Assembly (NCBI GenBank): GCA_963759165.1
Contig: CAVWXK010000001.1
Location: 2,849,579-2,913,578, forward strand
Length of the DNA: 64,000 nt
Direction of reading: 5' to 3'
Source: an uncultured Pseudomonadota bacterium
GTDB lineage: Bacteria; Desulfobacterota; Binatia; Binatales; Binataceae
Position 1 is the first letter of the stretch, and every line of letters begins with the position of its first letter. This document shows, in pieces, positions 44,573 to 60,751 of this stretch. The notes under the pieces are model-generated. The model made no database searches. It saw only the letters and a program-made list of their open reading frames with translations, and was not told the DNA's origin. The translations under genes and the position numbers were made by a program.

Positions 44573-44586
44573 GATAGCGCGACCCC

Positions 44587-45765: not shown

Positions 45766-45784
45766 GGCTGCCGGCGATCCCACG

Positions 45785-48332: not shown

Positions 48333-48370
48333 GCCGAGGTGGCGAAACGGCAGACGCAGAGGACCCAAAA
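48333..48370 (+). pseudogene. 5' portion of a split tRNA-Leu(CAA) gene (acceptor 5' strand, D arm, anticodon-stem 5' strand and anticodon loop only)
   Basis: GCCGAGG-UG-GCG-AAACGGCAGA-CGC-A-GAGGA-CCCAAAA. The complementary 3' strands (UCCUC…CCUCGGC-A-CCA) are found 10.9 kb downstream at 59301-59348. The following 85 nt (48371-48454) is non-tRNA sequence. Confidence 0.6.
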
Positions 48371-48454
48371 AGAAGACCGCCCGGAAGGCTACCGACCAAG
48401 CTGACATTACATTCGGCTGCCCTATGTGATAGAAAACTCTTGGTAACCAGCCGC

Positions 48455-48784
48455 GCGGGAGTGGCGGAACGGCAGACGCAGTGGACTCAGACCAAACTTG
48501 AGTGCTCGCCGGGAAACCGGCGATGCAGAACTGCTCAAATTCGGGGAAACCTGTGAAATGGCAATCCCGAGCCAAGCCTGGAGCAGCGCTCCGGGAAGGT
48601 GTAGAGACTAGACGGGCAGCACCTAACCCGCGAACCACGTTCGCGGTACGGTGAAGGGATAGTCCAGACCCCAAACCTCAACGGGACGCCCTTGGCGCTT
48701 CCAGCGAGGACGGCGAAAGCCGTAGAGGCAAGAAAATCCACCGAGCTCACGCTCGTGAGGGTTCAAGTCCCTCCTCCCGCACCA
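48455..48784 (+). tRNA. tRNA-Leu(CAA) interrupted by a 244-nt group I intron after C34; 3' CCA encoded
   Basis: Exon 1 (48455-48488) GCGGGAG-UG-GCGG-AACGGCAGA-CGC-A-GUGGA-CUC. Exon 2 (48733-48784) AAAA-UCCAC-CGAGCUCACGCUCGU-GAGGG-UUCAAGU-CCCUC-CUCCCGC-A-CCA. All stems pair perfectly. The long variable arm, A73 and anticodon C-A-A indicate a class-II Leu tRNA. The 3' exon is very similar to plastid/cyanobacterial trnL 3' exons. Confidence 0.85.
48489..48732 (+). ncRNA. group I intron (cyanobacterial/plastid tRNA-Leu type, IC3-like), no ORF
   Basis: It contains …CAAUCCCGAGCCAAGCC… and …GGAAGGUGUAGAGACUAGACGGGCAGCACCUAACC…. These match, nearly base for base, the P3-P4 and P7/P3'/P8 core strings I recall from the Anabaena/plastid tRNA-Leu(UAA) intron. 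P1 is formed by exon ACUC and intron AG pairing with CUUGAGU. Terminal G at 48732. Confidence 0.8.
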
Positions 48785-48897
48785 CTCTTCCTCACTGTCT
48801 CTTGAGCCGGGAAACCACGAGGCGCCATGTTTCCGCCGTGGCGACAGGGGATCACAGGCTCTGCGATAAATTGGCTGGGTTTTCGGGTTGCAGCCTC

Positions 48898-49512
48898 TTA
48901 TTTTGTTGGAACCTTGGCCGGCGGTGTGGCCCAGACGATATGTCCGGCGGTCGCGATGTCGATATCGACCTGCTTTGCGACCGTGAAGAAAAGAATGCTC
49001 GGATCTTCCAAGCCCCACTCGACATACGGCAGCGAAAAATGAGAAGTGGCAATCAGGCTGTCTCCGCTCAGACGGCCCTGAACCTCCAGGTTGATTTGGT
49101 GCCCGGTCCCGTGAAGTGTCAGAACTCCCAGCAGGTTTGCGTGAAACTGACCGTCAATCTCTAGCTGACCGGTAACGCGCTTAGGCGTGAATTTGATCTC
49201 CGGGTACTTGTGAACTTCGAGTATACTGTCCTTCATCCGGTCATCACGCGCGGATAAGCCGCTGTCACCGCTCGCGGCGACAATGACGACTGAGCCGCTG
49301 GCTTGACCAGTAGCTGGATCGGCCTCGATGATTCCCCGTTCAAGCTTGAAAGTACCGTGCGTGGTATGAAAATCGCCGGGCAAGCGAAACTCGATCAGTG
49401 TCTTTGACGGCTCGAGTTCCAGCGTTGCGGAGCGCAATTCCGCCGCCGCGGCTTGATGCCCGAAGGCGGCCACGGTGAGCAAGAATACAAGCGCACGAAT
49501 GCTAAATGACAT
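48898..49512 (-). CDS. YceI-like periplasmic polyisoprenoid-binding protein
   Basis: Signal peptide MSFSIRALVFLLTVAAFGHQAAA. YceI-like beta-barrel sequence (…HGTFKLERGIIEADPATGQASGSVVI…, FHANLLGVLTLHGTGHQINL). Confidence 0.85.
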   Translation of the reverse strand: MSFSIRALVFLLTVAAFGHQAAAAELRSATLELEPSKTLIEFRLPGDFHTTHGTFKLERGIIEADPATGQASGSVVIVAASGDSGLSARDDRMKDSILEVHKYPEIKFTPKRVTGQLEIDGQFHANLLGVLTLHGTGHQINLEVQGRLSGDSLIATSHFSLPYVEWGLEDPSILFFTVAKQVDIDIATAGHIVWATPPAKVPTK

Positions 49513-50881
49513 TTATGACGCGGCGCGCCATGCCCAGAGCTTCGGTCCAGAATCCGGTCGAGGCATGCATCAACTCCACGATCGCCTCCATTGCGTCAAC
49601 GAACTCATCCAACTGCGATTCGTTTATCACCAACGCGGGCGCGACCTTGAGCACCATGAAGTTGTTCCCGCAGATTTGACTGTATATCGCCTTGTCGCGG
49701 AACAGCCGCATCACCAGCACCTGCCCGAACATCGCCGGATGAATTCTCGAGAACGCTTCGAACAGAATTCTGAGGCGAAACTTTTTGGGAGGGCGAAACT
49801 CGATGGCGGACATCATGCCGAGGCCGCGGATGTCCTTAATCATCTGATAGCGCGAAAGCCGCGCGGCCAGCTTTTCGCGCAGGTAGCGGCCCAACCGCTC
49901 GCCGCGCTCACCCAGGTTGCCGTCCGCGAGCACGTCCATCGTGGCGAGGCCGGCGCGCATCGACAGGCTGTTCTCGCTATAAGTCGATGTGTGAATAATC
50001 GAACGTTTGAACGAGGTATAGACGGAACTATAAACCGCATCCGACATCAGCACCGCCCCTGACGGAACCAGGCCGCCGCTCATCGCCTTGGCAAGGATCA
50101 CCATGTCGGGCTCGACCCTGAAGTGATGCGCGGCGAGGAACGGTCCCGTGCGATACATGCCGGTCTGCACCTCGTCGAGCACGAACAGCGTGCCATGCCG
50201 CCGGCATAGTGACTGCGCTTGTTCCAGGTAATTTGGCGGTGGAATCAAAACTCCCGCTTCGGCCTGAATCGGTTCTACTACGAACGCGGCAAACTTTCGG
50301 GACGACAACTGCCTATCCAATTGCCCAATATCGCCGAATGGAACTGCCTGTGTCCCGGGAAGCAGTGGGCCGAACTCCGCGGTCCAGAAAGGATTGTCCA
50401 TCAGGGACAGCGCGCCGCAGGTGAGTCCATGAAAGCCGCCGCCCGCGTACAGGATCCCGGGCCGCTTGGTGTGGGCGCGGGCAAACTTGATTGCGGCTTC
50501 GACGCCTTCGCTTCCGGAACTGCAGAAGAACACTTTCGACAATCTTCCGCCGGCCTGCGTGCATAGCCGCTCAGCCAGCTCGCCGGCCAATTCCGGCACG
50601 TGGCCTTGCAGCATCGCCGGTCCGTTGCGGTCGAGCTCGGCTTTGAGGGCGCGGACGACGCCCGGATGATTGTGCCCGATGTTATGAACGCAGTAGCCGG
50701 AATTGAAATCCAGAATCCGCCGCCCATTATCGGTGAGAAGTTCTGAACCGAGACAGCTCGCGTAATGCACATTCATCCCGAGAACATCGAGCAGCCGCAC
50801 CCACTGCGGATTGACGTACTGTGCGTACAGCGGCTGCCGCGCGGATGAGTCTTTCGCTTCTGACAGTGGGTTCATAACCAT
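49502..50881 (-). CDS. class III pyridoxal-phosphate-dependent aminotransferase
   Basis: 459-aa ORF with …FFCSSGSEGVEAAIKFAR…, VLDEVQTGMYRTGPF, and the Lys of ILAKAMSGG. It overlaps yceI by 11 nt. Confidence 0.85.
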   Translation of the reverse strand: MVMNPLSEAKDSSARQPLYAQYVNPQWVRLLDVLGMNVHYASCLGSELLTDNGRRILDFNSGYCVHNIGHNHPGVVRALKAELDRNGPAMLQGHVPELAGELAERLCTQAGGRLSKVFFCSSGSEGVEAAIKFARAHTKRPGILYAGGGFHGLTCGALSLMDNPFWTAEFGPLLPGTQAVPFGDIGQLDRQLSSRKFAAFVVEPIQAEAGVLIPPPNYLEQAQSLCRRHGTLFVLDEVQTGMYRTGPFLAAHHFRVEPDMVILAKAMSGGLVPSGAVLMSDAVYSSVYTSFKRSIIHTSTYSENSLSMRAGLATMDVLADGNLGERGERLGRYLREKLAARLSRYQMIKDIRGLGMMSAIEFRPPKKFRLRILFEAFSRIHPAMFGQVLVMRLFRDKAIYSQICGNNFMVLKVAPALVINESQLDEFVDAMEAIVELMHASTGFWTEALGMARRVINVI

Positions 50882-50896
50882 CTCATTCGCTAGCAG

Positions 50897-50924
50897 GCTG
50901 CTGAAAAAGGCTTTTCAGCAGCCC
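50897..50924. promoter_or_regulatory. perfect 12-bp inverted repeat GGCTGCTGAAAA-AGGC-TTTTCAGCAGCC just upstream of the aminotransferase start
   Basis: The palindrome lies 16 nt 5' of the aminotransferase ATG on the minus strand, and about 135 nt 3' of the upstream haem-lipoprotein gene. Confidence 0.35.
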
Positions 50925-51059
50925 GCTACCCCCTCTGTAGTCTCCCCCGGTGGGAGAGAACTCGAGGAAAGAAGCCAGTTTTATCGCAGGGTGCTCGCAA
51001 CCGCTTCCGACACATAAAGGTTTTTCCGCACCCTGCTAGGATTTATTTTGCGGCGTGAT

Positions 51060-51512
51060 TCAATGTGCGGGCACGGCGGGCCGAGAGGCCCAGTTCAGGA
51101 GCGCCTGCTTTTGGTCACTGTTCAGGCGCGCCGAGTGATCGAGCAACGTGTAATCTCCCGGCGGCATCGAGCCGGCGCGCACAGACTTTTCGATATTCTT
51201 CAACGCATCCGTTTTTGTCTGCGCGTCGTAAGTCTGCCAGTCGGAAAAATTCAGCGCCCGGCGCGCGGAGTTGGCGGCCATGTAGGTCGGCGAGACGGCC
51301 GCATACCACGGTGCGCCGCCCCGGGTCGAATGGCACTGGTAACACGATCGCTGGACGATCGCGTTCACTTGCGGGTCCGCACTGACCGCGTTCGCGGAAT
51401 TCGGAGCTGCCGTCTCGGGCGTGGTTGTCTCCTGAGAGCTTGAACAACCCGCGACAAAAAGAGCCATACCAACCAGCCACGCGATCGGAAATAATCGAAT
51501 CTTCATCATCAT
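51060..51512 (-). CDS. haem-binding-domain lipoprotein with a single CxxCH motif
   Basis: Lipoprotein signal MMMKIRLFPIAWLVGMALFVAGC. The mature part contains QRSCYQCHSTRGG (CxxCH) and SVRAGSMPPGDY, typical of the small haem-binding-domain family. The upstream part of the long ORF is not credible coding. Confidence 0.7.
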   Translation of the reverse strand: MMMKIRLFPIAWLVGMALFVAGCSSSQETTTPETAAPNSANAVSADPQVNAIVQRSCYQCHSTRGGAPWYAAVSPTYMAANSARRALNFSDWQTYDAQTKTDALKNIEKSVRAGSMPPGDYTLLDHSARLNSDQKQALLNWASRPAVPAH

Positions 51513-51517
51513 GCCTT

Positions 51518-52693
51518 TTAGTCGTCGAGGCTCACGAAGCGGATGAGTCCCGCGGCGAGGAAAATGATCCCGATGCCGACCGTTGCCGCTAATGGCCGCA
51601 ATGCCGCGGAGGGCGGTTGGCTGCGAATCATCAGATCGTTGAACGCCTGCATGGTCCACGTCGTCGGCATCCAGCGGGCGAGTTCGCGCATCCATCCCGG
51701 CTCAAAGTCCAGCGGCCACCAGCATCCACCGATCGCCGCCATCGCCATGCTGACGGTTACGCCCAGCGGCATCACCGAATCGTGAGCGCGCGAAATCGAT
51801 GCGACCACCAGCCCCAACGCGGCGGCGGCGAAAGAGATTCCGACCGTCGGTATGAGCAACGCGAGAGGATTGCGTCCAAAAGTGATTCCGAACAGTGCCC
51901 ATCCGACCGCGAACAGCAACACCATTTGGGCGATACCGACGATGCTACGCGCGAATAGTTTTCCGAGCAGGAGTCCGGTAACCGGAGCACCACTGACCTG
52001 AAGGCGCTTGAGGGTCCCCCAATCGCGCTCATCGAAGAGCGTCAGCGCAATTCCCAGCATCATGCCAATCAGAAGAAACGTGATGCCGAATCCGGGGACG
52101 TACTGATCGAAGGCGTTTACAGTCACCGCTTCGCCCTCGATGGCGGGTTGTTCGACGAATCCGAGATCGCCGGGGAGCGTGAGCGCCGGCGACGCCACGA
52201 AGGATTCGATTTGCGCTTGCGCCGCCGCCCGCGCTTGCTCGGTGAGTCTTCGGCACAATTCGTCAATCCGAAGTTCGAGCGCGTTTACCTCGACTCGCCT
52301 GACGGGATCGACGAACAGAAACAGCCGAGGCTGGCGGCCCGCGGCGACCGCGGCGCTGGTTCCCGCGGGAATCACCATCGCGATGGGCGTCCGGTCGCGC
52401 TGGCTCACGAGGCGCCGCGCTTCATCGGCGTCGTTGAGCATTTCCAAAGTGAGGTTGCGATCGTGGTGCAGTGCTTGAATTATTCCGTCGGAGACCTGTC
52501 CATGATCGAGGTTGACCACGGGCAGTCGAAAGGAATTCGCGGCACCGCCGTACAGACTGACGAGCGAATATCCCGCGACCGTGATGATCACGACCGGCGC
52601 GAACAGAAGCATGAACAGCACAATCGGATCCTTGACCAGGAGCCGAGCCTCGTTGTGCGCGGTGAGCCATATCGCGCGAAGCATTGCCGACAC
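51518..52693 (-). CDS. ABC-2 type transporter permease
   Basis: 391-aa ORF with N-terminal TM, a large extracytoplasmic loop, and a C-terminal bundle of 5 TM helices (ABC2_membrane_3-like). Confidence 0.85.
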   Translation of the reverse strand: MSAMLRAIWLTAHNEARLLVKDPIVLFMLLFAPVVIITVAGYSLVSLYGGAANSFRLPVVNLDHGQVSDGIIQALHHDRNLTLEMLNDADEARRLVSQRDRTPIAMVIPAGTSAAVAAGRQPRLFLFVDPVRRVEVNALELRIDELCRRLTEQARAAAQAQIESFVASPALTLPGDLGFVEQPAIEGEAVTVNAFDQYVPGFGITFLLIGMMLGIALTLFDERDWGTLKRLQVSGAPVTGLLLGKLFARSIVGIAQMVLLFAVGWALFGITFGRNPLALLIPTVGISFAAAALGLVVASISRAHDSVMPLGVTVSMAMAAIGGCWWPLDFEPGWMRELARWMPTTWTMQAFNDLMIRSQPPSAALRPLAATVGIGIIFLAAGLIRFVSLDD

Positions 52694-52695
52694 GC

Positions 52696-53652
52696 TCAGA
52701 GCACCTGGTCGCGCAGTGCGTGGCCGGTCAGCGCGATGAACGCGTCAGACAGATTCGGACTATGCAGGTTGAAGTCGATGACATTTACGTCCAGTGTGCG
52801 AAGCCCGTGCAGCACCTCGGCGACCTGGCTGAGACTGGTCATCTCGAGAGTTGCCTGGCCTTCGACGAGGGTCCCGCCTATCTCGCGCACGCCGGCAAGT
52901 CCGCCGAAACGCCCTTGCGGCAAATTCCCGCGATAGGTCAGCTCGATGCGAGGCCGGCCGCCGCCGAGTGAAATCACCTTTTCGAGGCTGCCCTCGGCGA
53001 CTAGTTTGCCGCTATCGATCAGCAGCACGCGATCGCAAATGCGTTCCGCCTCCTCCATGTAATGGGTGCTGTAGATTATCGCCGAGCCGTTATCCGCGTA
53101 GCGTCGAATACGCGTCAATATCTGTTCGCGCGATTGGAGATCGACGCCGACGGTCGGTTCGTCCAGCAGCAGCACACGAGGACGATGAACAACTCCGCAA
53201 GCGAGGTTGAGGAGGCGCTTCATCCCGCCGGAAAACCCATGCATCGGATCGTCGGCGCGCCGGCTGAGACCCACCTCCTCGAGCACCCGCTTGCAGCGCT
53301 CCTTCGCGTCGTCCCGCGAGAGTCCTTGCATTCGGGCGAAATGCCATACGTTTTGTGCGGCGCTCAGCGCCGGGTAGAGCGCGAGCGATTGTGGCACCAG
53401 CCCAAGCATGCGTCCCAGCCCGCGCCGGTCGGTGTTTGGCGGCTTGCCATCGATCAGAACACGACCGCTATCAGGTCGCAGCAGAGTGGCGAGGATGGAG
53501 AGCGTCGTGGTCTTGCCCGCGCCGTTTGGTCCCAGCAACCCGGCAATCTCACCGGGCCTCACCGCGAGGCTGACCCTGTCGAGCGCGAGACGAATACCGT
53601 AGCTCTTGGATATCTCGATCGCCTCGAGGATTGGCGCGTCAGCCGGACTCAT
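52696..53652 (-). CDS. ABC transporter ATP-binding protein
   Basis: Walker A GLLGPNGAGKTT, signature FSGGMKRRLNL-like (FSGGMKRLLNLA), and Walker B LLLDEPT. Confidence 0.9.
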   Translation of the reverse strand: MSPADAPILEAIEISKSYGIRLALDRVSLAVRPGEIAGLLGPNGAGKTTTLSILATLLRPDSGRVLIDGKPPNTDRRGLGRMLGLVPQSLALYPALSAAQNVWHFARMQGLSRDDAKERCKRVLEEVGLSRRADDPMHGFSGGMKRLLNLACGVVHRPRVLLLDEPTVGVDLQSREQILTRIRRYADNGSAIIYSTHYMEEAERICDRVLLIDSGKLVAEGSLEKVISLGGGRPRIELTYRGNLPQGRFGGLAGVREIGGTLVEGQATLEMTSLSQVAEVLHGLRTLDVNVIDFNLHSPNLSDAFIALTGHALRDQVL

Positions 53653-53659
53653 CTTGCGC

Positions 53660-54813
53660 TCACGCCGCCGTCACCATCATTCGCATTGCGCCACCCATCA
53701 GGGCCGAGAATGCCCGCGGATGTCGCATCAGCAAGTTGATTATTGTCCGCCGAGCGCGAGGATGGCGCGCGACCATCAACAGGCCGCTGGTGATAAACCA
53801 GTAGCCGCGATAGAACCGGCGCACCTCGCGTTCGTAAGGCTGCATACTCTCCTGCGTAGCGCCGCGCTTTAGAATTTCAGGGAGATGCTTGCCGAGCATC
53901 AACGCCGAGTTGAACGCGATCGACAGTCCCTCGCCGGAGATTGAATCCAGGAATCCCCCAGCGTCGCCGACCAGTACCATGCGATTGGCGTTGCGACGAG
54001 TCACAGCGTGCTCCATCGGCCCGGCTCCTTTAATCGTTGAAATCGCCGGGGCGATCCCAAGCCGCGCCCGCAGGGCCGGAAAACAGCGCATCAGCACCGA
54101 TATTTCCGGCTGCTCGATGACTCCATCTTCCCAGACGAAATTGATTCCGACGCTTTCGTCGGAGACCGGAGTCACCACAGCTTCGCCCTTGTCGTCCACG
54201 TAAACTTCGACGAAGTCGGTCCAGGGGCGAATCTGGTAATGCTGGCGCAGCGCGAAGCGGCGATGGGCGCACGGAACCGGGTCGAGGCCCGATGCCTTTC
54301 GGAGCGACGAGTGAAGCCCGTCTGCCGCGACGACCAGCCTGCCGAATAATTCGCCCTCGGTCGTGTACACCACCGCTTCGCTCGAGGTCGCCTTGTAGCC
54401 ATTGACCGAGCATCGATGGCGCAATACGGCCCCCAGTTCCTCCGCGCGGCGCGCCAGCGCCTCGACCAGTACCGTGCGCCTGATGCCCATCCCGTGGGAG
54501 GGCAGGCGCGCTTCCGCAGCGGAACCGTTTTCCTGGATGAAGCGAATTCCGGCGAATGGATAAAGACGTCGTGCGATCGAAACGATCGGCGATCTCCAAG
54601 GCGCTCGAGGGCCTTCACGCCCGGCGGCAGCACGCCTTCGCCGCAAGCCTTGTCCAGCGGGAAATCGCGACGCTCGACGACTACGACGGAGAGGCCCTGT
54701 TCCGCCGCGACGATTGCGACGGCGAGCCCCGCCGGTCCACCGCCGACTACGACGAGATCCCATATCGCGCGCGCGGGCGCTGATACATAGCTGGCGGCCG
54801 GCGTGCTAGCCAT
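53660..54813 (-). CDS. FAD-dependent oxidoreductase (geranylgeranyl-reductase / flavin-monooxygenase-like), interrupted by an apparent 1-nt indel near 54575-54600
   Basis: The N-terminus sits in ORF 54172..54813 (DLVVVGGGPAGLAVAIVAAEQGLSVVVVERRDFPLDKACGEGVLPPGVKALERLG), a Rossmann GxGxxG. The body sits in ORF 53660..54763 (…IARRLYPFAGIRFIQENGSAAEARLPSHGMGIRRTVL… GDAGGFLDSISGEGLSIAF). The frames switch inside a gatcg x3 repeat. Confidence 0.75.
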
Positions 54814-54819
54814 TTAGCA

Positions 54820-55917
54820 TCACCATCGCAGCAGAACCAACTCGCCGCAGAAACCGGGACCCATCGAGAGCAGCACCCCGTAGTCTCCTGGACGAGCGAC
54901 GTTCGCCTCCAGAAAGTCGGCCGCCACGAACAGCACCGACGCGGATGACAAATTTCCGATCGACGCGAGCGATTTCCAGGATCGCTGGAGACTGCATCGT
55001 GGTACTTCGAGCGCCGCCTCCATCGCCTGCAGCACTTTCGGTCCGCCGGTGTGAGCGATCCAATGCTTGATGTCGCGGCGCGAAAGCCCGTGCTCGTCGA
55101 GGAACGAATCCGCTCCCTGGCGCAGTTTATTTCGCACGAGGTCCGGAACGCCCGCCGACAGCACGATCTCGAAGCCGCTGTCCCCGATGTGCCAGCCCAT
55201 CATTTGCTCGGTGTCGTGAAAGAACATCGATCGCGACGCGACGATCCTCGGCAAGCGCGGCGCGCGGTCCTTCGCTCCGCCGCTTACAATCGCCGCCGCG
55301 GCCCCGTCCGCAAAAAGACCCGATGCGATTACGTTGGCAACCGACTGATCCTTCAACTGGAGCGTAAGCGAGCAGAGTTCTACTGAAACAAGAAGTGCCG
55401 TATGGCTTGGAAAAGCACGCAGGTAGTCCGCTGCTCGGGCCAACCCCGCTGCTCCGCCGACGCAACCGAGCCCGAAGATGGGAGTCCGCTTGATGTCCGC
55501 TCGCATCGACAGTCGATTCACGAGTTTGGCGTCGATGCTGGGCGACGCGATGCCCGTCACGGTAGTGAAAAAAATGTGGTCAACATCCGTCGGCGACAGT
55601 CCTGCTTGCGAAAGCGCCGATAAGGCCGCTTGTTCGCCGAGATCGGTCGCGCGTTCGATCCACTTATCGTTCGTCTTCGAGAATGAATCGAGGGCGCGGT
55701 AATCCTCCATCGGGAGCGCTAGATGGCGTCCGCGAACGCCGACCGAACGATGGATCCGCTCGAAGCGGGCGCGGCCTTCGTCGCTGCCGTCCCATTCCTT
55801 CCAAAGCGCCGCGGAAATCACTTCCTGCGGATAGTAGTTTTCCGGTAGAGCGCGGCCGATCGATCGCAATAGCGGGTGGTTCGTGGCTGATGGCTCATTC
55901 CTTGCCGTGTTGTGCAT
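54820..55917 (-). CDS. type III polyketide synthase (chalcone/stilbene synthase family)
   Basis: …LLRSIGRALPENYYPQEVISAAL… N-terminus. Active-site Cys in IFGLGCVGGAAGL. C-terminal GDYGVLLSMGPGFCGELVLLRW. The start is taken at MHNTAR (365 aa) and could be 26 codons earlier. Confidence 0.85.
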   Translation of the reverse strand: MHNTARNEPSATNHPLLRSIGRALPENYYPQEVISAALWKEWDGSDEGRARFERIHRSVGVRGRHLALPMEDYRALDSFSKTNDKWIERATDLGEQAALSALSQAGLSPTDVDHIFFTTVTGIASPSIDAKLVNRLSMRADIKRTPIFGLGCVGGAAGLARAADYLRAFPSHTALLVSVELCSLTLQLKDQSVANVIASGLFADGAAAAIVSGGAKDRAPRLPRIVASRSMFFHDTEQMMGWHIGDSGFEIVLSAGVPDLVRNKLRQGADSFLDEHGLSRRDIKHWIAHTGGPKVLQAMEAALEVPRCSLQRSWKSLASIGNLSSASVLFVAADFLEANVARPGDYGVLLSMGPGFCGELVLLRW

Positions 55918-56357
55918 GTTAACCGGGATTTCGCGCTTCCAGACCGTCGGTGTTCTGAGCCGGCAGCCTCGGTAGAGGTTTAGAGCACGATTCATGTCGT
56001 CCGCGTGTCGAGGTGATGTTCTTTGTGTGCTGCAAGGCAGCAGCGACAGGCGCACGTTCCTAGCAAACCGCCTGCCATCCGTTTACGCTGATATCAACGG
56101 CCAATCGCTAGGCTTCTCGTCGCTGCATCTCTACGACGACATGGGTTGTCCAAAAATTCGAACGCAAAAAAAGGTTCGTGTACAAACTTTTGAACGAAAT
56201 GAGATAGGCCTTACGGAATTTGGGTCATCGTCAAAAGGATTTCATTAAAGATGGCGGCATCGCGTTTGCTCATGGGGCCGTCTCCTCCGGAGACGGACAG
56301 GTGGCGATTGTTGCCACCGCTCGATTCGTTCGGACGGTTGACCGACTCTGACCAAAA

Positions 56358-57699
56358 ATGACCGAGCATAAACCGAGCGATAGTCTCTGGGCGATTAGCT
56401 CCCTTACAAGCGCGATGGGCAATGGCGCCGCCGAATTCGCGGTGGACGACCAGGAATCCTTTCGCCGGCAGGAATTCGTCTTCGCTTCTCTGAATCTTTT
56501 GCTGATTGGTGCACTGTTGGCGCTGCAAGCGATCTCGAAGTTCGTCCGTGGCAAACCTTCCGCGTCGGTTATCATCGTCCTGGCGGTGGGTTTGAGCGTA
56601 CAGGCGGCTCACCTAATCTGGCTGCGCAAGAGGAACGCGACAATTTCCCGGAGAACACGACGGTTCCTCACTTTCTGGTCTCTCGGCTTCAACTCGATAC
56701 TGGCGTTGGCGCTCACCTCGTTGACCATCAGAGGAGACACTGCGTACTACGCCCTGATGCTTCTTCCGATACTCGAAGCGGCTTTCAGGCTCGGCCTTGG
56801 CGCCACGATTGCGGTGGTTGTACTGGCGGACTTCATCAGCTTCATGGGCGCCTATGGCCTGAAATTCGGCGAGTACATCGAAGCCGGCGCGATGTCGGTA
56901 ATCTACAGCGTGATGGGGGTGCTGGTGTGGCTGCTGGTCAACAATCTACGCACTCGCGAGGCCAAATTCGTGCACAATCTCGAGGAACTCGAACGTACCC
57001 GCCAGCAATTGCTCTCTGAAGAGAAGCTTGCCGCAATCGGCCGATTGTCCAGAGCGATCGCGCACGAAATCCGAAATCCCGTTGCGATGATTTCCAGCTC
57101 GTTGGCAACCGCTATCCGGCCGGGTCAGAACAAAACAGAACGAGAAGAAATGTTCTCGATAGCGGCAAAGGAAGCCGTGCGTCTCGAACGGCTGACCAGC
57201 TGACTTCCTGGTTTACGCGCGTCCGCGTCCCGTGCAGATCGCGCGGGCAAACCTCGCCGACACTCTGAACTACGTCGCTACTCTCGCTCGCGCGCACGCG
57301 GCCAATGAAGGTGTAGCGATCGATGTCGCTGTCGACAGCAAGCTTGAGGGGGAGTTCGATGCGAACCAGATGCATCAGGCGCTCCTGAACCTGGTGCTCA
57401 ACGCAATCGACGCATGTCATCGAGGGGATGTGGTTAAGCTCGACGCGCAGATGAACGGAAACGGCACCATCCGAATCGACGTAGTCGACCCGGCTGGTCC
57501 GATTCCCGCGGAAGTCGTGGCGCGTATTTTCGAGCCGCTGTTTACCACCAAGCGGGGCGGCAACGGACTCGGTCTCGCGATCGCGCGCAACATCGCGCGC
57601 GCGCATGGCAGCGACATCGTGCTGAGATTCAACGAAACGCGGCGGGTATGCTTTTCCATCGAGATACTGGCGCACTTCCCGAGCCAATCCCTCAAATAG
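56358..57699 (+). CDS. sensor histidine kinase (membrane, HisKA plus HATPase_c), interrupted by a +1 T insertion at about 57200 that creates a TGA
   Basis: ORF 56358..57203 holds the TM region plus H-box (RLSRAIAHEIRNPVAMI) and ends …RLERLTS*. The next frame continues PADFLVYARPRPVQIARANLADTLNYV… into the HATPase_c domain (ORF 57232..57699; N-box LLNLVLNAIDA, G-boxes GGNGLGLAIARNIARAHG). The sequence agcTgac has one base more than the expected agc-gac. Confidence 0.8.
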
Positions 57700-57709
57700 G
57701 GGCCACACC

Positions 57710-59116
57710 ATGGGCAAGATACTCATTGTGGATGACGAACCGCACTTGCGGCGGATACTCATCTCCAATCTGAAGCAGGAGCATCACGAGGTAGTCGAGG
57801 CTGCCGGTGTCAACGATGCGCGAGGCGCGCTTGCCGAGCACACATTCGATGCCGTCATAACTGACCAGAAGATGGCCGATGGCGAAGGATTGGACGTCCT
57901 GGCCGCGGCGCGGGAAGCTGATCCGAATCTGTCCGTGCTTTTTCTGACCGCGTTTGCGACCATTGAACTCGCGGTGGAAAGCATGCGCCGCGGCGCATTC
58001 GATTTCATCACCAAGCCCTTCGTTCCTGAAGTCTTGCTGGCGTCGGCCACCCGCGCTATGGAGCACACGCGGCTTGTGCGTGAGAACGCCAGGCTCCGCG
58101 ACACGGTGGTGCGCCTTGAAGGCTCCTCGGAGCTCTCAGGGCGCAGCCTGGCGATTCGCCAACTCCGCGAAAAAATCGCGCGCGTCGCGCCGACCAACGC
58201 CACCGTCCTGATCACCGGGGAAACGGGGACCGGCAAGGAGCTGGTCGCCCGCGCGATTCATCGCAACAGCCTGCGTGCCGGGAAGACGCTGGTCGCCGTC
58301 AATTGTGCTGCGTTTACCGAAACGCTTCTGGAAAGCGAGCTGTTCGGACACGAGCGGGGAGCTTTCACCGGCGCCGATCGCGCGCGCGAGGGAGTCTTCG
58401 AGGCCGCGCACGAAGGTACGCTTTTTCTCGACGAGGCCGCCGAAATGTCGCTGCAGGCGCAGGCCAAGCTGCTGCGGGTGTTGACGGACGGGCTGATTAC
58501 CCGGCTCGGATCGACCAAGCCCCGGCACACCGATGTGCGGCTGCTGGTCGCGACCAACAGGGATTTGAAGCGTCGCGTGGAAGAGGGCCGCTTTCGCGAG
58601 GACCTCTACTACCGGCTGGCGGTGGTTCCTCTCACGGTTCCCGCTCTGCGCGATCATCGCGAGGACATACCCGAGCTTTGCGCCCTGTTCCTGGCGCAGG
58701 CTGTGCGCGACCTGAACACGCCGCCGCGCAGAATCAGCGCCGAAGCGCTTGGCACGCTCCTCAGCTACGATTTTCCCGGGAATATCCGCGAACTTCGCAA
58801 CCTCATCGAGCGCGCATGCATTCTCTCAGCCGAGGAGGAAATCACCCAGGAGAACTTTCCGGTGTCAACGCCTCGCAGCGCAAACGGCCTTGCGGCCCGC
58901 AGTTCCGCCGAACTCACCACCGACCAGCTTGCCGAGATGATGCCCGAGACACACAACCTGCGAGAGTTTCTCGCTTCGCTGGAAAAAGCGGTGATTCAGC
59001 GCGCGCTGAAGATAACCGATGGTGCGCAGGCGGAAGTCGCGCGCCGGCTAGGAATGTCGCGAAGCGATCTTTCATACAAGCTCGGCAAACACCGCATCAA
59101 GAGCGCGGCGAACTAA
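57710..59116 (+). CDS. sigma54-dependent response regulator (REC plus AAA+ sigma54-activator plus Fis-type HTH; NtrC family)
   Basis: Phospho-acceptor Asp in the DAVITDQKM context. Walker A GETGTGKE, GAFTGA sigma54-contact motif, and C-terminal HTH (QAEVARRLGMSRSDLSYKL). Confidence 0.9.
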   Translation: MGKILIVDDEPHLRRILISNLKQEHHEVVEAAGVNDARGALAEHTFDAVITDQKMADGEGLDVLAAAREADPNLSVLFLTAFATIELAVESMRRGAFDFITKPFVPEVLLASATRAMEHTRLVRENARLRDTVVRLEGSSELSGRSLAIRQLREKIARVAPTNATVLITGETGTGKELVARAIHRNSLRAGKTLVAVNCAAFTETLLESELFGHERGAFTGADRAREGVFEAAHEGTLFLDEAAEMSLQAQAKLLRVLTDGLITRLGSTKPRHTDVRLLVATNRDLKRRVEEGRFREDLYYRLAVVPLTVPALRDHREDIPELCALFLAQAVRDLNTPPRRISAEALGTLLSYDFPGNIRELRNLIERACILSAEEEITQENFPVSTPRSANGLAARSSAELTTDQLAEMMPETHNLREFLASLEKAVIQRALKITDGAQAEVARRLGMSRSDLSYKLGKHRIKSAAN

Positions 59117-59217
59117 CCCCGTAATCCGGCAAGGGCTTGCACATCCGTCACAGCCAGCGCGAACCCCGCTCCCGCTAGCTGCTCGGCCACGCCCTTAAGA
59201 TGATCCGGAAAGCCTTC

Positions 59218-59289
59218 AAAACTTACACATAAACTTACACAGTCTCACAGCGATGAAGATGAAAGCTCAATTCTTTCAAGGAGTTATGA
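59218..59289 (+). repeat. AT-rich (about 35% GC) segment with three direct AAACTTA(C/T)A motifs abutting the tRNA 3' fragment; candidate integrase arm-type sites
   Basis: aaaacttacacat-aaacttacacag … aataaacttatagg. This is the lowest-GC stretch in the window and sits exactly at the island/tRNA-fragment junction. A related AAAACTC / TTACA motif occurs in the left arm (48403-48432). Confidence 0.4.
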
Positions 59290-59348
59290 ATAAACTTATA
59301 GGACTCAAAATCCTCCGTGCGCAAGCACATGCGGGTTCAAGTCCCGCC
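59290..59348 (+). pseudogene. 3' portion of the split tRNA-Leu(CAA) gene (anticodon-stem remnant, loop, variable arm, T arm, acceptor 3' strand, CCA)
   Basis: AGGA-CUCAAAA-UCCUC-CGUGCGCAAGCACAU-GCGGG-UUCAAGU-CCCGC-CCUCGGC-A-CCA. UCCUC and CCUCGGC are exact complements of GAGGA and GCCGAGG in the 5' fragment at 48333-48370. Confidence 0.65.
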
Positions 59349-59415
59349 CTCGGCACCAGAACATCCTCACCCGAGCAGGCGGGGGATTCAGAGAAGCGCG
59401 CCCTTCAGCCGGCCA

Positions 59416-60743
<1,328 letters not shown>

Positions 60744-60751
<8 letters not shown>

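What the first reader, a model, noticed from the sequence alone, without database searches (positions are those of the whole stretch)
48898..55917. Island cargo: type III PKS, GGR-like flavoprotein, ABC-2 exporter, CxxCH lipoprotein, class III aminotransferase and YceI (candidate phenolic-lipid pathway)
- Inside the tRNA-bounded segment, seven co-oriented, tightly packed genes on the minus strand are read 55917 to 48898. In order they are: a type III PKS, an FAD-dependent geranylgeranyl-reductase-like oxidoreductase, ABC ATPase and ABC-2 permease, a small haem-binding CxxCH lipoprotein, a class III aminotransferase, and a YceI polyisoprenoid-binding protein.
- In known alkylresorcinol/alkylquinone systems a type III PKS is paired with a flavoprotein hydroxylase (this is established knowledge).
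- The additional aminotransferase and the YceI/haem periplasmic proteins suggest (inference) a modified, possibly aminated, phenolic-lipid or quinone product. It would be exported to the envelope.
- The cluster is controlled by the adjacent kinase/sigma54 regulator.
- I do not know of this exact combination described as a unit.
Basis: inference. Interest (0 to 1): 0.6.

Follow-up and report, generated by a model that had tools for sequence, protein, structure and literature searches.

The report
Mobile phenolic-lipid operon splitting a tRNA
An uncultured soil bacterium (Binataceae) carries a seven-gene set for making and exporting a phenolic lipid, found in many of its relatives but not described in the papers searched, and here it sits with its own regulators on a 10.9-kb insert that split a leucine tRNA gene and brought a replacement.

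Summary
The seven minus-strand genes are real and at the stated coordinates: type III PKS (Cys152-His289-Asn322; 45% identical to M. tuberculosis Pks11), flavoprotein, ABC ATPase, ABC-2 permease, CxxCH haem lipoprotein, PigE/putrescine-type aminotransferase and YceI lipocalin.

- **Damage:** the flavoprotein gene carries two 1-nt insertions, probably assembly errors.
- **Conservation:** the set recurs in many Binatia genomes and metagenome contigs, in several gene orders. 57 of 59 YceI-subfamily loci have a cluster gene directly upstream. The aminotransferase is present in only about half.
- **Difference from known operons:** unlike srsABC, pkqABC or hidABC, there is no ICMT methyltransferase.
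- **Regulation:** a sigma-54 -24/-12 element and two palindromic upstream sites are conserved in 12 loci.
- **Island:** 48371-59299 is inserted in the anticodon loop of a tRNA-Leu(CAA). Relatives have that tRNA intact. The insert has 11-nt junction repeats, no integrase, and its own tRNA-Leu(CAA) with a group I intron.
- **Best reading:** a sigma-54-induced alkylresorcinol or alkylquinone is exported to periplasmic YceI and haem partners. An aminated product is not supported.

It is a new variant of a known kind.

The parts
48333..48370 (+). 5' fragment (positions 1-38) of a disrupted intron-less tRNA-Leu(CAA). The last 11 nt, AGGACCCAAAA (48360-48370), are the left copy of the junction repeat.
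   Evidence: 94% identical to L117 2089-2135, which is part of an intact tRNA-Leu(CAA) found by ARAGORN at L117 2098-2183. Repeat family D3.
48371..48454 (+). Left arm of the inserted segment. Non-coding.
   Evidence: Absent from the empty-site relatives L117, L118, L119 and L121. No match in other loci.
48455..48784 (+). Island-borne complete tRNA-Leu(CAA), interrupted between anticodon positions 34 and 35 by a 244-nt group I intron (48489-48732).
   Evidence: ARAGORN with introns allowed. Rfam RF00028 scores 40-45 bits (gathering score 50), E about 1e-9, with the P3-P8 core motifs aligned.
48898..49512 (-). YceI-family lipocalin with an N-terminal signal peptide (AAAA/E). Overlaps the aminotransferase stop by 11 nt.
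   Evidence: Pfam PF04264, 66.7 bits. Distant match to the polyisoprenoid-binding proteins 1wub and 5w37 and to BcnA 5ixg. 16-sequence alignment.
49502..50881 (-). Class III omega-aminotransferase, cytoplasmic. PLP lysine lies in DMVILAKAMSGG.
   Evidence: Pfam Aminotran_3, E=9.3e-86. Best NCBIfam match is the PigE aminotransferase domain, 392 bits. Best PDB matches are 4PPM (E=9.6e-85), then YgjG.
50882..51059 (-). 178-nt spacer with three strong hairpins. Unique to this genome; relatives have about 15-75 nt here.
   Evidence: RNA fold -75.8 kcal/mol, z=-4.65. No copies elsewhere. No T-tract terminator.
51060..51512 (-). Haem_bd lipoprotein. Lipobox FVAGC, with invariant CxxCH and MPP motifs.
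   Evidence: Pfam PF14376, 96.7 bits. Alignments.
51518..52684 (-). ABC-2 permease with six predicted TM helices and a roughly 150-aa loop between TM1 and TM2.
   Evidence: Pfam ABC2_membrane_3, E=6.6e-38. Hydropathy profile.
52696..53652 (-). ABC ATPase, DrrA-like.
   Evidence: Pfam ABC_tran. TIGR01188 drrA scores 241 bits, below its cut-off of 312.
53660..54813 (-). FAD-dependent oxidoreductase of the type found in canonical PKS-methyltransferase-oxidoreductase operons. Broken here by two 1-nt insertions at about 54599 and 54561.
   Evidence: tblastn in two frames against the intact 383-aa orthologue. Nucleotide alignment with six relatives. GxGxxG, DG and GD motifs and KACGE are present, and there is no WxWxIP halogenase motif. 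NCBIfam and PDB matches.
54820..55917 (-). Type III polyketide synthase, 365 aa. Catalytic residues Cys152, His289 and Asn322; Trp242 lies in MGWHIG.
   Evidence: Pfam. PDB 4jao (Pks11), E=4.6e-92 and 45% identity, with triad columns aligned. JGI names homologues 'alkylresorcinol/alkylpyrone synthase'.
56062..56077 (-). Sigma-54 -24/-12 element TGGCAGGCGGTTTGCT, about 145 nt upstream of the PKS ATG.
   Evidence: It is the only site scoring at least 10 of 11 in 44-64 kb. A matching site lies between the kinase and the PKS in L001, L006-L009 and L020 and in 12 aligned loci.
56148..56195 (-). Two palindromic upstream sites: GTTCAAAAGTTTGTAC (56180-56195) and GTTCGAATTTTTGGAC (56148-56163). They are candidate binding sites for the sigma-54 activator.
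   Evidence: Conserved blocks in the 12-locus alignment. A similar element is duplicated in L012.
56358..57699 (+). Histidine kinase. The N-terminal 200 aa form 5-6 TM helices with no large periplasmic domain. One extra base at 57199 breaks the frame.
   Evidence: tblastn in two frames. Nucleotide alignment. Hydropathy of the intact orthologue. Pfam HisKA and HATPase_c.
57710..59116 (+). NtrC-family sigma-54-dependent response regulator.
   Evidence: TIGR01818 scores 405.7 bits, below its cut-off of 558.6. Pfam Response_reg, Sigma54_activat and HTH_8 on the 90%-identical orthologue.
59117..59299 (+). Right arm of the inserted segment, with three direct AAACTTA repeats at 59219, 59231 and 59292.
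   Evidence: The motif occurs nowhere else in 48-60 kb. The arm is 73% similar over 100 nt to a sequence that abuts a tRNA-Leu(UAA)-like 3' fragment in L001.
59300..59358 (+). 3' fragment (position 28 to CCA) of the disrupted tRNA-Leu(CAA). The first 11 nt, AGGACTCAAAA, are the right copy of the junction repeat.
   Evidence: 97% identical to L117 2125-2184. Repeat family D1. Sequence read directly.

Best explanation
This is a self-contained operon, induced through sigma-54, for making and exporting a long-chain phenolic lipid. It is characteristic of Binatia and is carried here on an integrase-less inserted segment.

Shown by sequence and comparison:
- A catalytically complete type III PKS close to long-chain alkylpyrone and alkylresorcinol synthases.
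- A flavoprotein homologous to the oxidoreductase of the srsABC, pkqABC and hidABC operons.
- A DrrAB-like ABC-2 exporter.
- A CxxCH haem lipoprotein and a secreted YceI lipocalin.
- A divergent membrane-embedded kinase and sigma-54 activator, with a conserved promoter.

Inferred steps:
1. The PKS extends a fatty-acyl starter with malonyl-CoA to an alkylresorcinol or alkylpyrone.
2. The flavoprotein hydroxylates the ring, giving an alkyl-hydroxyquinol or benzoquinone. No O-methylation follows, because no ICMT gene is present.
3. The ABC-2 pump moves the lipid out of the inner membrane.
4. The YceI barrel carries it in the periplasm. The haem lipoprotein acts as its redox partner. Together they would form an envelope antioxidant or electron-shuttle module, analogous to the YceI (BcnA)/cytochrome b561 system.

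The PigE/YgjG-like aminotransferase is a dispensable accessory that handles an aldehyde or amine.

The whole unit, with a replacement intron-bearing tRNA-Leu(CAA), was inserted by site-specific recombination into the anticodon loop of a chromosomal tRNA-Leu(CAA).
For: - **Gene identities:** Pfam, NCBIfam and PDB matches.
- **Linkage across gene orders:**
  - PKS-FAD-ABC-ABC2-Haem-AT-YceI in L001, L007, L008, L009 and (Haem inverted) L020.
  - AT-YceI-Haem-PKS-FAD-ABC-ABC2 in L022 and L023.
  - PKS-FAD-Haem-AT-YceI in L012 and L017.
  - YceI-PKS-FAD-ABC-ABC2 in L019 and L036.
  - PKS-FAD-YceI followed by an AsmA-like gene in a Terriglobia MAG, L030.
- **YceI-centred test:** 57 of 59 metagenome loci have a cluster gene directly upstream of YceI.
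- **Flavoprotein:** 37-49% identical to those in canonical PKS-ICMT-FAD operons.
- **Envelope context:** MlaC and MlaA, or an AsmA-like gene, lie next to the cluster in L003 (MlaA also in L008) and L030.
- **Localisation:** lipobox, CxxCH and signal peptides are conserved.
- **Promoter:** conserved in 12 loci.
- **Literature:**
  - A hydroxylase and methyltransferase convert alkylresorcinols to benzoquinones; polyketide quinones act as electron carriers (PMC9927152).
  - A YceI homologue binds ubiquinone-8, and YceI genes are linked to a haem protein in a peroxidation-defence system (PMC9113575).
  - A type III PKS operon with a lipoprotein and a lipid/isoprenoid-binding protein exists in 'S. 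ferox' (PMC10896814).
- **Insertion:** empty site with an intact tRNA in L117, L118, L119 and L121; 11-nt junction repeats.
Against: - No product chemistry is known for any member.
- The flavoprotein scores best against the geranylgeranyl-reductase superfamily model and carries a GGR-like KACGE motif. It could be a reductase rather than a hydroxylase.
- It was not compared directly with SrsC.
- In this genome the flavoprotein and kinase genes are frameshifted.
- One Binatia lineage keeps only a 125-aa stump of the flavoprotein and lacks YceI.
- The haem protein is a c-type lipoprotein, not a cytochrome b561, so the redox-partner idea rests on analogy only.
- The role of the aminotransferase is unexplained.
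- A structure model of the haem protein was unusable (pLDDT 47.5).
Confidence: 0.55

Rival explanations
1. The product is a secreted antimicrobial or allelopathic alkylresorcinol. The ABC-2 pump exports it. YceI acts as a self-protective scavenger of the hydrophobic toxin, as BcnA captures antibiotics. The haem protein is incidental.
For: - Alkylresorcinols are bioactive amphiphiles.
- Transporters in type III PKS clusters have been read as a sign of an extracellular role (PMC8086630).
- BcnA-type lipocalins scavenge antibiotics (PMC9113575).
- The ATPase resembles the DrrA type used for drug export.
- Carriage on a mobile segment is typical of accessory traits.
Against: - The haem lipoprotein is conserved next to YceI, with invariant CxxCH, in 24 of the 59 YceI loci and in most full clusters.
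- The sensor kinase is membrane-embedded, which fits sensing of envelope state.
- Neighbours such as MlaA, MlaC and an AsmA-like gene point to lipid trafficking within the envelope.
Confidence: 0.2
2. The product is a membrane respiratory polyketide quinone, as in Mycobacterium and Streptomyces PkQ. It would be used as an alternative electron carrier under a specific stress. The haem lipoprotein would be its oxidoreductase partner in the membrane rather than in a periplasmic shuttle.
For: - The PKS plus oxidoreductase core is shared with pkqABC.
- The PKS is 45% identical to Pks11.
- A c-type haem protein is present in the operon.
- Expression is tightly regulated, as reported for PkQ (PMC9927152).
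Against: - The ICMT methyltransferase that defines pkq, srs and hid operons is absent.
- A membrane quinone needs neither an ABC exporter nor a soluble periplasmic lipocalin.
Confidence: 0.15
3. In this particular genome the cluster is a decaying, non-functional remnant of a degraded island. The flavoprotein and kinase genes are true pseudogenes, and the integrase has been lost.
For: - Two 1-nt insertions in the flavoprotein gene and one in the kinase gene, absent from all relatives.
- No integrase in the insert.
Against: - A paralogous regulator outside the insert (59572-60751) is also frameshifted. Four indels in about 12 kb fit long-read assembly errors.
- Relatives come from long-contig MAG assemblies.
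- The broken genes are as well conserved (80-93% amino-acid identity) as their intact neighbours.
- The other seven island genes (five cluster genes, the PKS and the response regulator) are intact.
Confidence: 0.15
4. The seven genes are two unrelated units that merely lie side by side. One is PKS-flavoprotein-ABC for biosynthesis. The other is haem protein/aminotransferase/YceI, for polyamine or aldehyde metabolism or a general stress response.
For: - A 178-nt structured spacer separates the two halves here.
- One lineage has PKS-ABC-ABC2 without YceI, haem protein or aminotransferase.
- The aminotransferase resembles putrescine aminotransferase.
Against: - In relatives the spacer is only about 15-75 nt.
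- The second half moves with the first through at least four different gene orders.
- This YceI subfamily is almost never found away from the cluster (57 of 59 loci).
- Only one sigma-54 promoter is seen.
Confidence: 0.07

Closest known systems
srsABC (Streptomyces griseus), pkqABC (Mycobacterium smegmatis, Streptomyces sp. MNU77) and hidABC (cyanobacteria, Planctomycetota): three-gene alkylresorcinol-to-alkylquinone operons
   Same: - A type III PKS of the long-chain alkylresorcinol/alkylpyrone type sits directly next to an FAD-dependent oxidoreductase.
- That flavoprotein is 37-49% identical to those of canonical operons found here in Archangium and actinobacterial MAGs.
- Expression appears conditional and regulated.
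   Different: - There is no ICMT-family methyltransferase in any Binatia-type locus, whereas 10 of 10 canonical-type loci have one.
- Added genes: ABC-2 exporter, Haem_bd lipoprotein, YceI lipocalin, and optionally a PigE-like aminotransferase or an acyl-ACP-desaturase-like gene.
- It has a dedicated sigma-54 two-component system.
BcnA (YceI lipocalin) / LcoA (cytochrome b561) / PsrA envelope lipid-peroxidation defence system of Burkholderia (PMC9113575)
   Same: - A secreted YceI-family lipocalin is genetically linked to a haem protein.
- A cytoplasmic enzyme that acts on aldehydes lies nearby (there a reductase, here an omega-aminotransferase).
- A quinone ligand was proposed for the lipocalin.
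   Different: - The haem partner is a small CxxCH lipoprotein (PF14376), not a membrane cytochrome b561.
- The operon encodes its own lipid biosynthesis and exporter.
- The YceI here is only distantly similar to BcnA (E=0.0023).
Mycobacterium tuberculosis Pks11 (PDB 4jao) and cyanobacterial CylI (8ysp)
   Same: These are the closest solved structures (E=4.6e-92 and 5.2e-60). Identity to Pks11 is 45%, and the Cys-His-Asn triad is aligned.
   Different: The genomic context differs. The product of the enzyme here is unknown.
'Saltatorellus ferox' Poly30 pentacistronic operon: lipoprotein, lipid/isoprenoid-binding protein, two methyltransferases, type III PKS (PMC10896814)
   Same: A type III PKS is co-operonic with a lipoprotein and a lipid/isoprenoid-binding protein. 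Its PKS made alkylresorcinols in a heterologous host.
   Different: That operon has methyltransferases and lacks a flavoprotein, an ABC exporter and an aminotransferase. Sequence relatedness of the accessory proteins was not tested here.
tRNA-targeting genomic islands and cis-mobilisable elements (integrase-less derivatives that keep their att sites)
   Same: - Insertion within a tRNA gene at the anticodon stem-loop.
- Short direct repeats at both junctions.
- An intact empty site in relatives.
- Repeated short motifs in one arm.
   Different: - No integrase or excisionase lies inside.
- The target tRNA is not restored by the element's end. Instead the element carries a whole second tRNA-Leu(CAA), itself interrupted by a group I intron.
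- There is almost no GC deviation (0.602 against 0.62-0.63).

Membership tests
Type III polyketide synthase (chalcone/stilbene synthase superfamily) | Both Pfam domains, PF00195 and PF02797, score above their gathering thresholds. | tested here: met
   79.7 and 66.6 bits against cut-offs of 27.
Type III polyketide synthase (chalcone/stilbene synthase superfamily) | A Cys-His-Asn catalytic triad. | tested here: met
   Cys152 (FGLGC), His289 (WIAHTGGPKV) and Asn322 (IGNLSSAS) align with the Pks11 triad. The 4jat entry, a Cys-to-Ser variant, marks the Cys column.
Type III polyketide synthase (chalcone/stilbene synthase superfamily) | Resorcinol-directing Trp at the position equivalent to ArsB-281. 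| tested here: inconclusive
   Trp242 (MGWHIG) aligns with a Trp of Pks11. PMC9927152 reports the Trp as conserved in ArsB, PkqA and its Streptomyces enzyme, with M. tuberculosis PKS11 included in the same alignment. No direct alignment with ArsB or ArsC was made.
srsABC / pkqABC / hidABC alkylresorcinol-to-alkylquinone operon | A type III PKS adjacent to an FAD-dependent oxidoreductase. | tested here: met
   The two genes are 6 nt apart. The pairing is conserved in more than 20 loci. In this window the flavoprotein gene is frameshifted.
srsABC / pkqABC / hidABC alkylresorcinol-to-alkylquinone operon | An ICMT-family O-methyltransferase in the operon. | tested here: not met
   No ICMT ORF occurs in the window cluster or in any Binatia-type locus. 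ICMT is present in L024-L029 and L032-L035.
srsABC / pkqABC / hidABC alkylresorcinol-to-alkylquinone operon | The product is a methylated alkylbenzoquinone. | not testable with these tools
   This needs expression and LC-MS.
Geranylgeranyl reductase family (TIGR02032) | A score above the curated cut-off. | tested here: not met
   134.4 bits against a cut-off of 158.8. It is nevertheless the best-scoring model, and a GGR-like KACGE motif is present.
Flavin-dependent halogenase | The WxWxIP motif. | tested here: not met
   The motif is absent, although halogenases are among the top PDB sequence matches.
PigE (prodigiosin MAP aminotransferase, NF053554) | Full-length match above the cut-off, including the N-terminal domain. 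| tested here: not met
   392 bits against a cut-off of 850. Only the aminotransferase domain (profile positions 378-729) is matched, and the protein has no N-terminal domain.
Class III (omega) aminotransferase | The Pfam domain and the PLP-binding lysine. | tested here: met
   PF00202 scores 288.5 bits. The Lys in ILAKAMSGG aligns with the Lys of PigE and YgjG.
YceI-like lipid/polyisoprenoid-binding protein (PF04264) | The Pfam domain above threshold, plus a secretion signal. | tested here: met
   66.7 bits against a cut-off of 23.7. A hydrophobic N-terminus with an A-rich cleavage region is conserved. Ligand binding was not tested.
BcnA/LcoA lipocalin-cytochrome b561 system | A cytochrome b561 gene adjacent to the YceI gene. 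| tested here: not met
   No b561 gene is present. The linked haem protein is a PF14376 CxxCH lipoprotein.
c-type cytochrome lipoprotein (Haem_bd, PF14376) | The Pfam domain, an invariant CxxCH motif and a lipobox. | tested here: met
   96.7 bits. C57-x-x-C60-H61, the lipobox Cys23 and M116-P-P are invariant in 22 sequences. Haem attachment itself was not tested.
Sigma-54-dependent operon with a cognate enhancer-binding protein | A GG-N10-GC -24/-12 element, upstream activator sites and an adjacent NtrC-family activator. | tested here: met
   TGGCAGGCGGTTTGCT and two palindromes are conserved in 12 loci. The kinase and regulator are syntenic in 13 genome loci. Binding and transcription were not tested.
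Site-specifically integrated genomic island | Insertion in a tRNA gene with junction repeats, and an intact empty site in relatives. | tested here: met
   The 11-nt repeat AGGACYCAAAA lies at 48360-48370 and 59300-59310. L117, L118, L119 and L121 carry the intact tRNA-Leu(CAA) next to the same TenA gene, and L117 also has the same downstream regulator.
Site-specifically integrated genomic island | A resident integrase or recombinase gene. | tested here: not met
   The insert is filled by the tRNA, the seven genes, the kinase and the regulator. A crude tyrosine-recombinase motif scan of the whole window found nothing.
Group I intron (RF00028) in a tRNA anticodon loop | A covariance-model score above gathering, and an intron between tRNA positions 34 and 35. 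| tested here: inconclusive
   40-45 bits against a gathering score of 50, with E of 4e-9 to 8e-10 and the core helices aligned. ARAGORN places a 244-nt intron at positions 34/35. Splicing was not tested.

The most novel reading that the evidence does not exclude
The operon would encode a complete, portable periplasmic redox-lipid system. A dedicated unmethylated polyketide hydroquinone or resorcinol is exported by an ABC-2 pump, held by a specialised YceI lipocalin, and cycled by a small c-type haem lipoprotein. This would quench envelope radicals or shuttle electrons. The optional aminotransferase would clear aldehyde by-products. The system would spread among Binataceae on integrase-less cassettes that target tRNA-Leu anticodon loops. 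These cassettes would carry an intron-interrupted replacement tRNA whose target site is masked at the DNA level by the intron.
Probability: 0.2. Interest if true: 0.8.

Novelty: new variant of a known kind. Interest (0 to 1): 0.58.

Why it matters
**Function of YceI and Haem_bd proteins.** YceI lipocalins and PF14376 'Haem_bd' proteins are abundant, yet their function is largely unsettled. Here both are locked to a defined lipid-biosynthetic pair and an exporter, in hundreds of environmental contigs. That gives a concrete ligand hypothesis that can be tested by expression and ligand analysis.

**Phenolic-lipid operons.** The finding extends the alkylresorcinol/polyketide-quinone operon family to the uncultured phylum Binatota. 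The architecture is new: no methyltransferase, plus an exporter, periplasmic carriers and a sigma-54 membrane-sensing circuit.

**Mobile elements.** The insertion is a clean natural example of three things together:
- an integrase-less cassette that disrupts a tRNA gene;
- a replacement tRNA supplied by the cassette;
- a bacterial group I intron in a tRNA-Leu(CAA) outside cyanobacteria.

Tried and rejected
1. **tRNA detection.** Standard ARAGORN and Rfam at gathering thresholds found no tRNA, and GC content is flat. I first rejected the island claim. It was reinstated after repeat finding and an empty-site comparison.
2. **Source contig.** Proteins 100% identical to the window lie on a 3.27-Mb public contig (P0121, P0241), but neither is on record in the contig index. 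The source assembly could not be fetched.
3. **Haem_bd structure.** An AlphaFold model from 22 close homologues gave pLDDT 47.5, so no fold search was run.
4. **Literature.** Searches for type III PKS with YceI, Binatota with polyketide, and Binatia with T3PKS found no description of this cluster.
5. **Halogenase reading of the flavoprotein.** Halogenases are top PDB hits, but the WxWxIP motif is absent, so this was rejected.
6. **Window-wide sigma-54 motif count.** It is no higher than chance (63 against 61). Only position and conservation make the site meaningful.
7. **Spacer as repeat element or terminator.** The 178-nt spacer has no other copies and no T-tract.
8. **Junction repeats in relatives.** A search for flanking repeats around the block in other loci found only the 315-nt eno repeat in L003.
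9. **Homologous recombination between two tRNA-Leu genes as the cause of the split.** This was rejected, because it would give two chimeric full-length genes rather than orphan halves.

Full report
**1. Observation**

The region 48898-55917 holds seven minus-strand ORFs.
- type III PKS (Chal_sti_synt_N and _C);
- an FAD-dependent oxidoreductase;
- ABC_tran;
- ABC2_membrane_3;
- Haem_bd (PF14376);
- Aminotran_3;
- YceI.

Gaps between genes are 3-11 nt or overlaps. The exception is a 178-nt spacer between the haem gene and the aminotransferase. It folds into three strong hairpins (z=-4.65) and has no T-tract terminator.

One correction is needed. The flavoprotein gene is split over two frames. 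Alignment with six relatives shows two extra bases, at about 54599 and 54561. The adjacent kinase has one extra base at 57199. A paralogous regulator at 59572-60751 is also frameshifted. That makes four indels in about 12 kb. The amino-acid conservation of the broken genes is otherwise normal, and relatives come from long-contig MAG assemblies. Assembly error is therefore the likelier cause, but true pseudogenes are not excluded.

**2. The proteins**

- **PKS.**
  - It is 45% identical to M. tuberculosis Pks11 (PDB 4jao, E=4.6e-92). CylI is the next solved relative.
  - Cys152, His289 and Asn322 align with the catalytic triad.
  - JGI names its homologues 'alkylresorcinol/alkylpyrone synthase'.
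  - Trp242 aligns with a Trp of Pks11. The literature links a Trp at ArsB position 281 to resorcinol formation (PMC9927152). That equivalence was not tested directly.
- **Flavoprotein.**
  - It has GxGxxG, DG and GD motifs and a GGR-like KACGE motif, and no halogenase WxWxIP motif.
  - Its best NCBIfam model is the geranylgeranyl-reductase superfamily, but the score is below cut-off (134 against 158.8). UbiH-type hydroxylases come next.
- **ABC pair.** It is DrrA/DrrB-like, also below cut-offs. The permease has six TM helices and a large first loop.
- **Haem protein.** It has a conserved lipobox and invariant CxxCH and MPP motifs.
- **Aminotransferase.**
  - It aligns over its full length with the catalytic domain of PigE (4PPM, E=9.6e-85). 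Putrescine aminotransferase YgjG is the next match.
  - The PLP lysine is conserved.
  - These relatives act on aldehydes and primary amines.
- **YceI.** It has a signal peptide and no cysteine. It is distantly related to polyisoprenoid-binding YceI proteins and to BcnA.

**3. Organism and conservation**

Proteins 100% identical to the window lie on a 3.27-Mb public contig. Relatives are named Candidatus Binatus, Binataceae or Binatia.

Of 31 genome loci found with the PKS, the Binatia loci carry the same accessory genes in several orders:
- PKS-FAD-ABC-ABC2-Haem-AT-YceI in L001, L007, L008, L009 and L020 (Haem gene inverted in L020);
- AT-YceI-Haem-PKS-FAD-ABC-ABC2 in L022 and L023;
- PKS-FAD-Haem-AT-YceI in L012 and L017;
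- YceI-PKS-FAD-ABC-ABC2 in L019 and L036;
- PKS-FAD-YceI followed by an AsmA-like gene in a Terriglobia MAG, L030.

One lineage has PKS, a truncated flavoprotein gene, ABC and ABC2 only.

More distant PKS loci (Archangium, actinobacteria and others) instead have the canonical PKS-ICMT methyltransferase-FAD layout. No Binatia-type locus has an ICMT gene.

A search centred on YceI in metagenomes gave 204 relatives. Of the 80 kept, 59 show the upstream flank. In 57 of those a cluster gene lies directly upstream: aminotransferase in 27, Haem_bd in 24, PKS in 5 and ABC in 1. So this YceI subfamily belongs to the cluster. The aminotransferase is optional, and in L006 it has been deleted, leaving a remnant.

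Some relatives add an acyl-ACP-desaturase-family gene between the promoter and the PKS. MlaC and MlaA flank the cluster in L003, and MlaA in L008.

**4. Regulation**

A single strong sigma-54 -24/-12 element, TGGCAGGCGGTTTGCT (56062-56077, minus strand), lies about 145 nt upstream of the PKS start. The window-wide count of such motifs is at chance level. The site matters because the same element sits between the kinase and the PKS in related loci.

An alignment of 12 loci shows the element conserved together with two palindromes of the form GTTCAAA-N2-TTTGTAC, about 80 and 110 nt upstream. The divergent kinase and NtrC-family regulator are syntenic in 13 genome loci.

The kinase sensor region is 5-6 TM helices with no periplasmic domain, which suggests it senses something within the membrane. 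Control by this pair is a well-supported inference, but it has not been demonstrated.

**5. The island**

I first rejected the 'tRNA-bounded' claim, because standard tools found no tRNA and GC is flat. Three results reversed that.

- **A split tRNA.** Repeat finding showed that 48333-48370 and 59300-59358 are the 5' and 3' parts of one intron-less tRNA-Leu(CAA). They overlap by 11 nt, AGGACYCAAAA, in the anticodon stem-loop.
- **An empty site in relatives.**
  - A relative with a 90%-identical TenA gene (L117) has TenA, then the intact tRNA-Leu(CAA), then the same downstream regulator.
  - Its tRNA is 94-97% identical to the two window fragments.
  - Three further contigs show the same intact tRNA next to TenA.
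- **A defined insert.** Hence 48371-59299 (10,929 nt) is an insertion. It contains:
  - a complete second tRNA-Leu(CAA) at 48455-48784, interrupted at positions 34/35 by a 244-nt group I intron (ARAGORN with introns; RF00028 at 40-45 bits, E about 1e-9);
  - the seven cluster genes;
  - the promoter, the kinase and the regulator;
  - a right arm with three AAACTTA repeats found nowhere else in 48-60 kb.

There is no room for an integrase in the insert, and a crude recombinase-motif scan of the window found none. The insert's GC is 0.602, against 0.62-0.63 in the flanks, so a related donor is likely.

Further signs of mobility in relatives:
- Flanks of the block are not shared among related genomes.
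- In L003 the block lies between 315-nt direct repeats (96% identical) of the eno 5' region.
- In L001 a sequence 73% similar to the right arm abuts a degenerate tRNA-Leu(UAA) 3' fragment, about 150 nt beyond YceI.

The cassette therefore looks like a non-autonomous element moved by an integrase that targets tRNA-Leu anticodon loops. It inactivates its target and supplies a substitute. At the DNA level the intron interrupts the 11-nt core in the substitute gene. Whether that protects it from re-targeting is speculation.

**6. Mechanism**

Shown here: the identities, motifs, linkage, promoter conservation and insertion.

Inferred:
1. The PKS makes a long-chain alkylresorcinol or alkylpyrone.
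2. The flavoprotein oxidises the ring, by analogy with the hydroxylase of srsABC (PMC9927152; PMC8086630).
3. The ABC-2 pump extracts the lipid from the inner membrane.
4. YceI carries it in the periplasm, and the haem lipoprotein exchanges electrons with it.

The last step rests on three published points. A Neisseria YceI homologue binds ubiquinone-8. YceI genes are commonly linked to a cytochrome b561. The BcnA/LcoA/PsrA system protects the envelope from lipid peroxyl radicals, with a cytoplasmic aldehyde reductase as its third component (PMC9113575). An aldehyde-handling aminotransferase would fit that pattern, but this is analogy only.

Precedents for parts of the combination:
- type III PKS clusters with cytochrome b5 and transporters in cyanobacteria, still uncharacterised (PMC8086630);
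- an 'S. ferox' operon with a lipoprotein, a lipid/isoprenoid-binding protein and an alkylresorcinol-forming PKS (PMC10896814).

**7. Verdict**

A phenolic-lipid pathway, export to the envelope, sigma-54 control and island cargo all hold. An aminated product is not supported.

The cluster fails the ICMT criterion of the srs, pkq and hid family, so it is a new variant of that kind rather than a member. No paper in the searched library describes it.

The main uncertainties are:
- the product;
- whether the flavoprotein is a hydroxylase or a reductase;
- the role of the haem protein and the aminotransferase;
- whether the frameshifts are real.

Noticed in passing
window 48455-48784 (+): A tRNA-Leu(CAA) carries a 244-nt group I intron between anticodon positions 34 and 35. 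Its core motifs resemble the classic tRNA-Leu intron. Default ARAGORN and Rfam gathering thresholds both miss it. With ARAGORN's placement the 5' exon ends in C rather than the usual U.
   Followed up: partly
window 54561, 54599, 57199 and about 59900: Single-base indels break the flavoprotein gene, the histidine kinase and a second sigma-54 regulator (59572-60751). That is four in about 12 kb, which suggests long-read assembly errors across the window.
   Followed up: partly
L007 9162-9959; L008 9066-10016; also L009, L038, L052, L103: An acyl-ACP-desaturase-family (PF03405) di-iron gene lies between the sigma-54 promoter and the PKS in some relatives, but is absent from the window. It could be a desaturase or a CylC-like halogenase, a type known from type III PKS clusters (PMC8406957).
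   Followed up: partly
L003 5751-6065 and 19402-19716: A 315-nt direct repeat (96% identical) of the enolase promoter and 5' end flanks the whole kinase-to-MlaA block. This looks like a second, different insertion signature for the same cassette.
   Followed up: partly
L001 16990-17190: A degenerate tRNA-Leu(UAA) 3' fragment lies about 150 nt after YceI. Next to it is a sequence 73% similar to the window's right arm, including the TGTGTAAGTTTATGT motif. This suggests a related tRNA-Leu-targeting element is present in this genome too.
   Followed up: partly
L118, L119, L121 (contig ends): Three independent short-read contigs stop at, or within 12 nt of, the 3' end of the intact tRNA-Leu(CAA). 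The sequence just downstream of the tRNA differs between L117, L121 and the window. This points to a variable integration hot spot.
   Followed up: no
window 50882-51059: A 178-nt spacer with three strong hairpins (z=-4.65), including a 17-bp perfect stem, is unique to this genome. Relatives have about 15-75 nt here. Its function is unknown.
   Followed up: partly
L006 15068-15748: In the closest genome relative the aminotransferase gene has been deleted. A C-terminal remnant (LFRDKARYSQICGNN) is fused in frame to the start of the YceI ORF.
   Followed up: no
L012 6399-6538 and 14906-15041: The palindromic upstream site and a TGGCACCGCACTTGC sigma-54 element occur twice, upstream of the kinase and again downstream of YceI. 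The regulator may control a further gene beyond the cluster.
   Followed up: no
window 59416-62028 (-) and 42245-45783 (-): A second sigma-54 two-component pair lies immediately beyond the right junction. Polysaccharide export genes (Wzz/GNVR tyrosine kinase, Poly_export) lie to the left. In L001 the same kind of export genes flank the opposite end of the block.
   Followed up: no
L020 12253-13620: A roughly 1.3-kb insertion with no long ORF in one frame separates the flavoprotein gene from the ABC ATPase gene in this relative.
   Followed up: no
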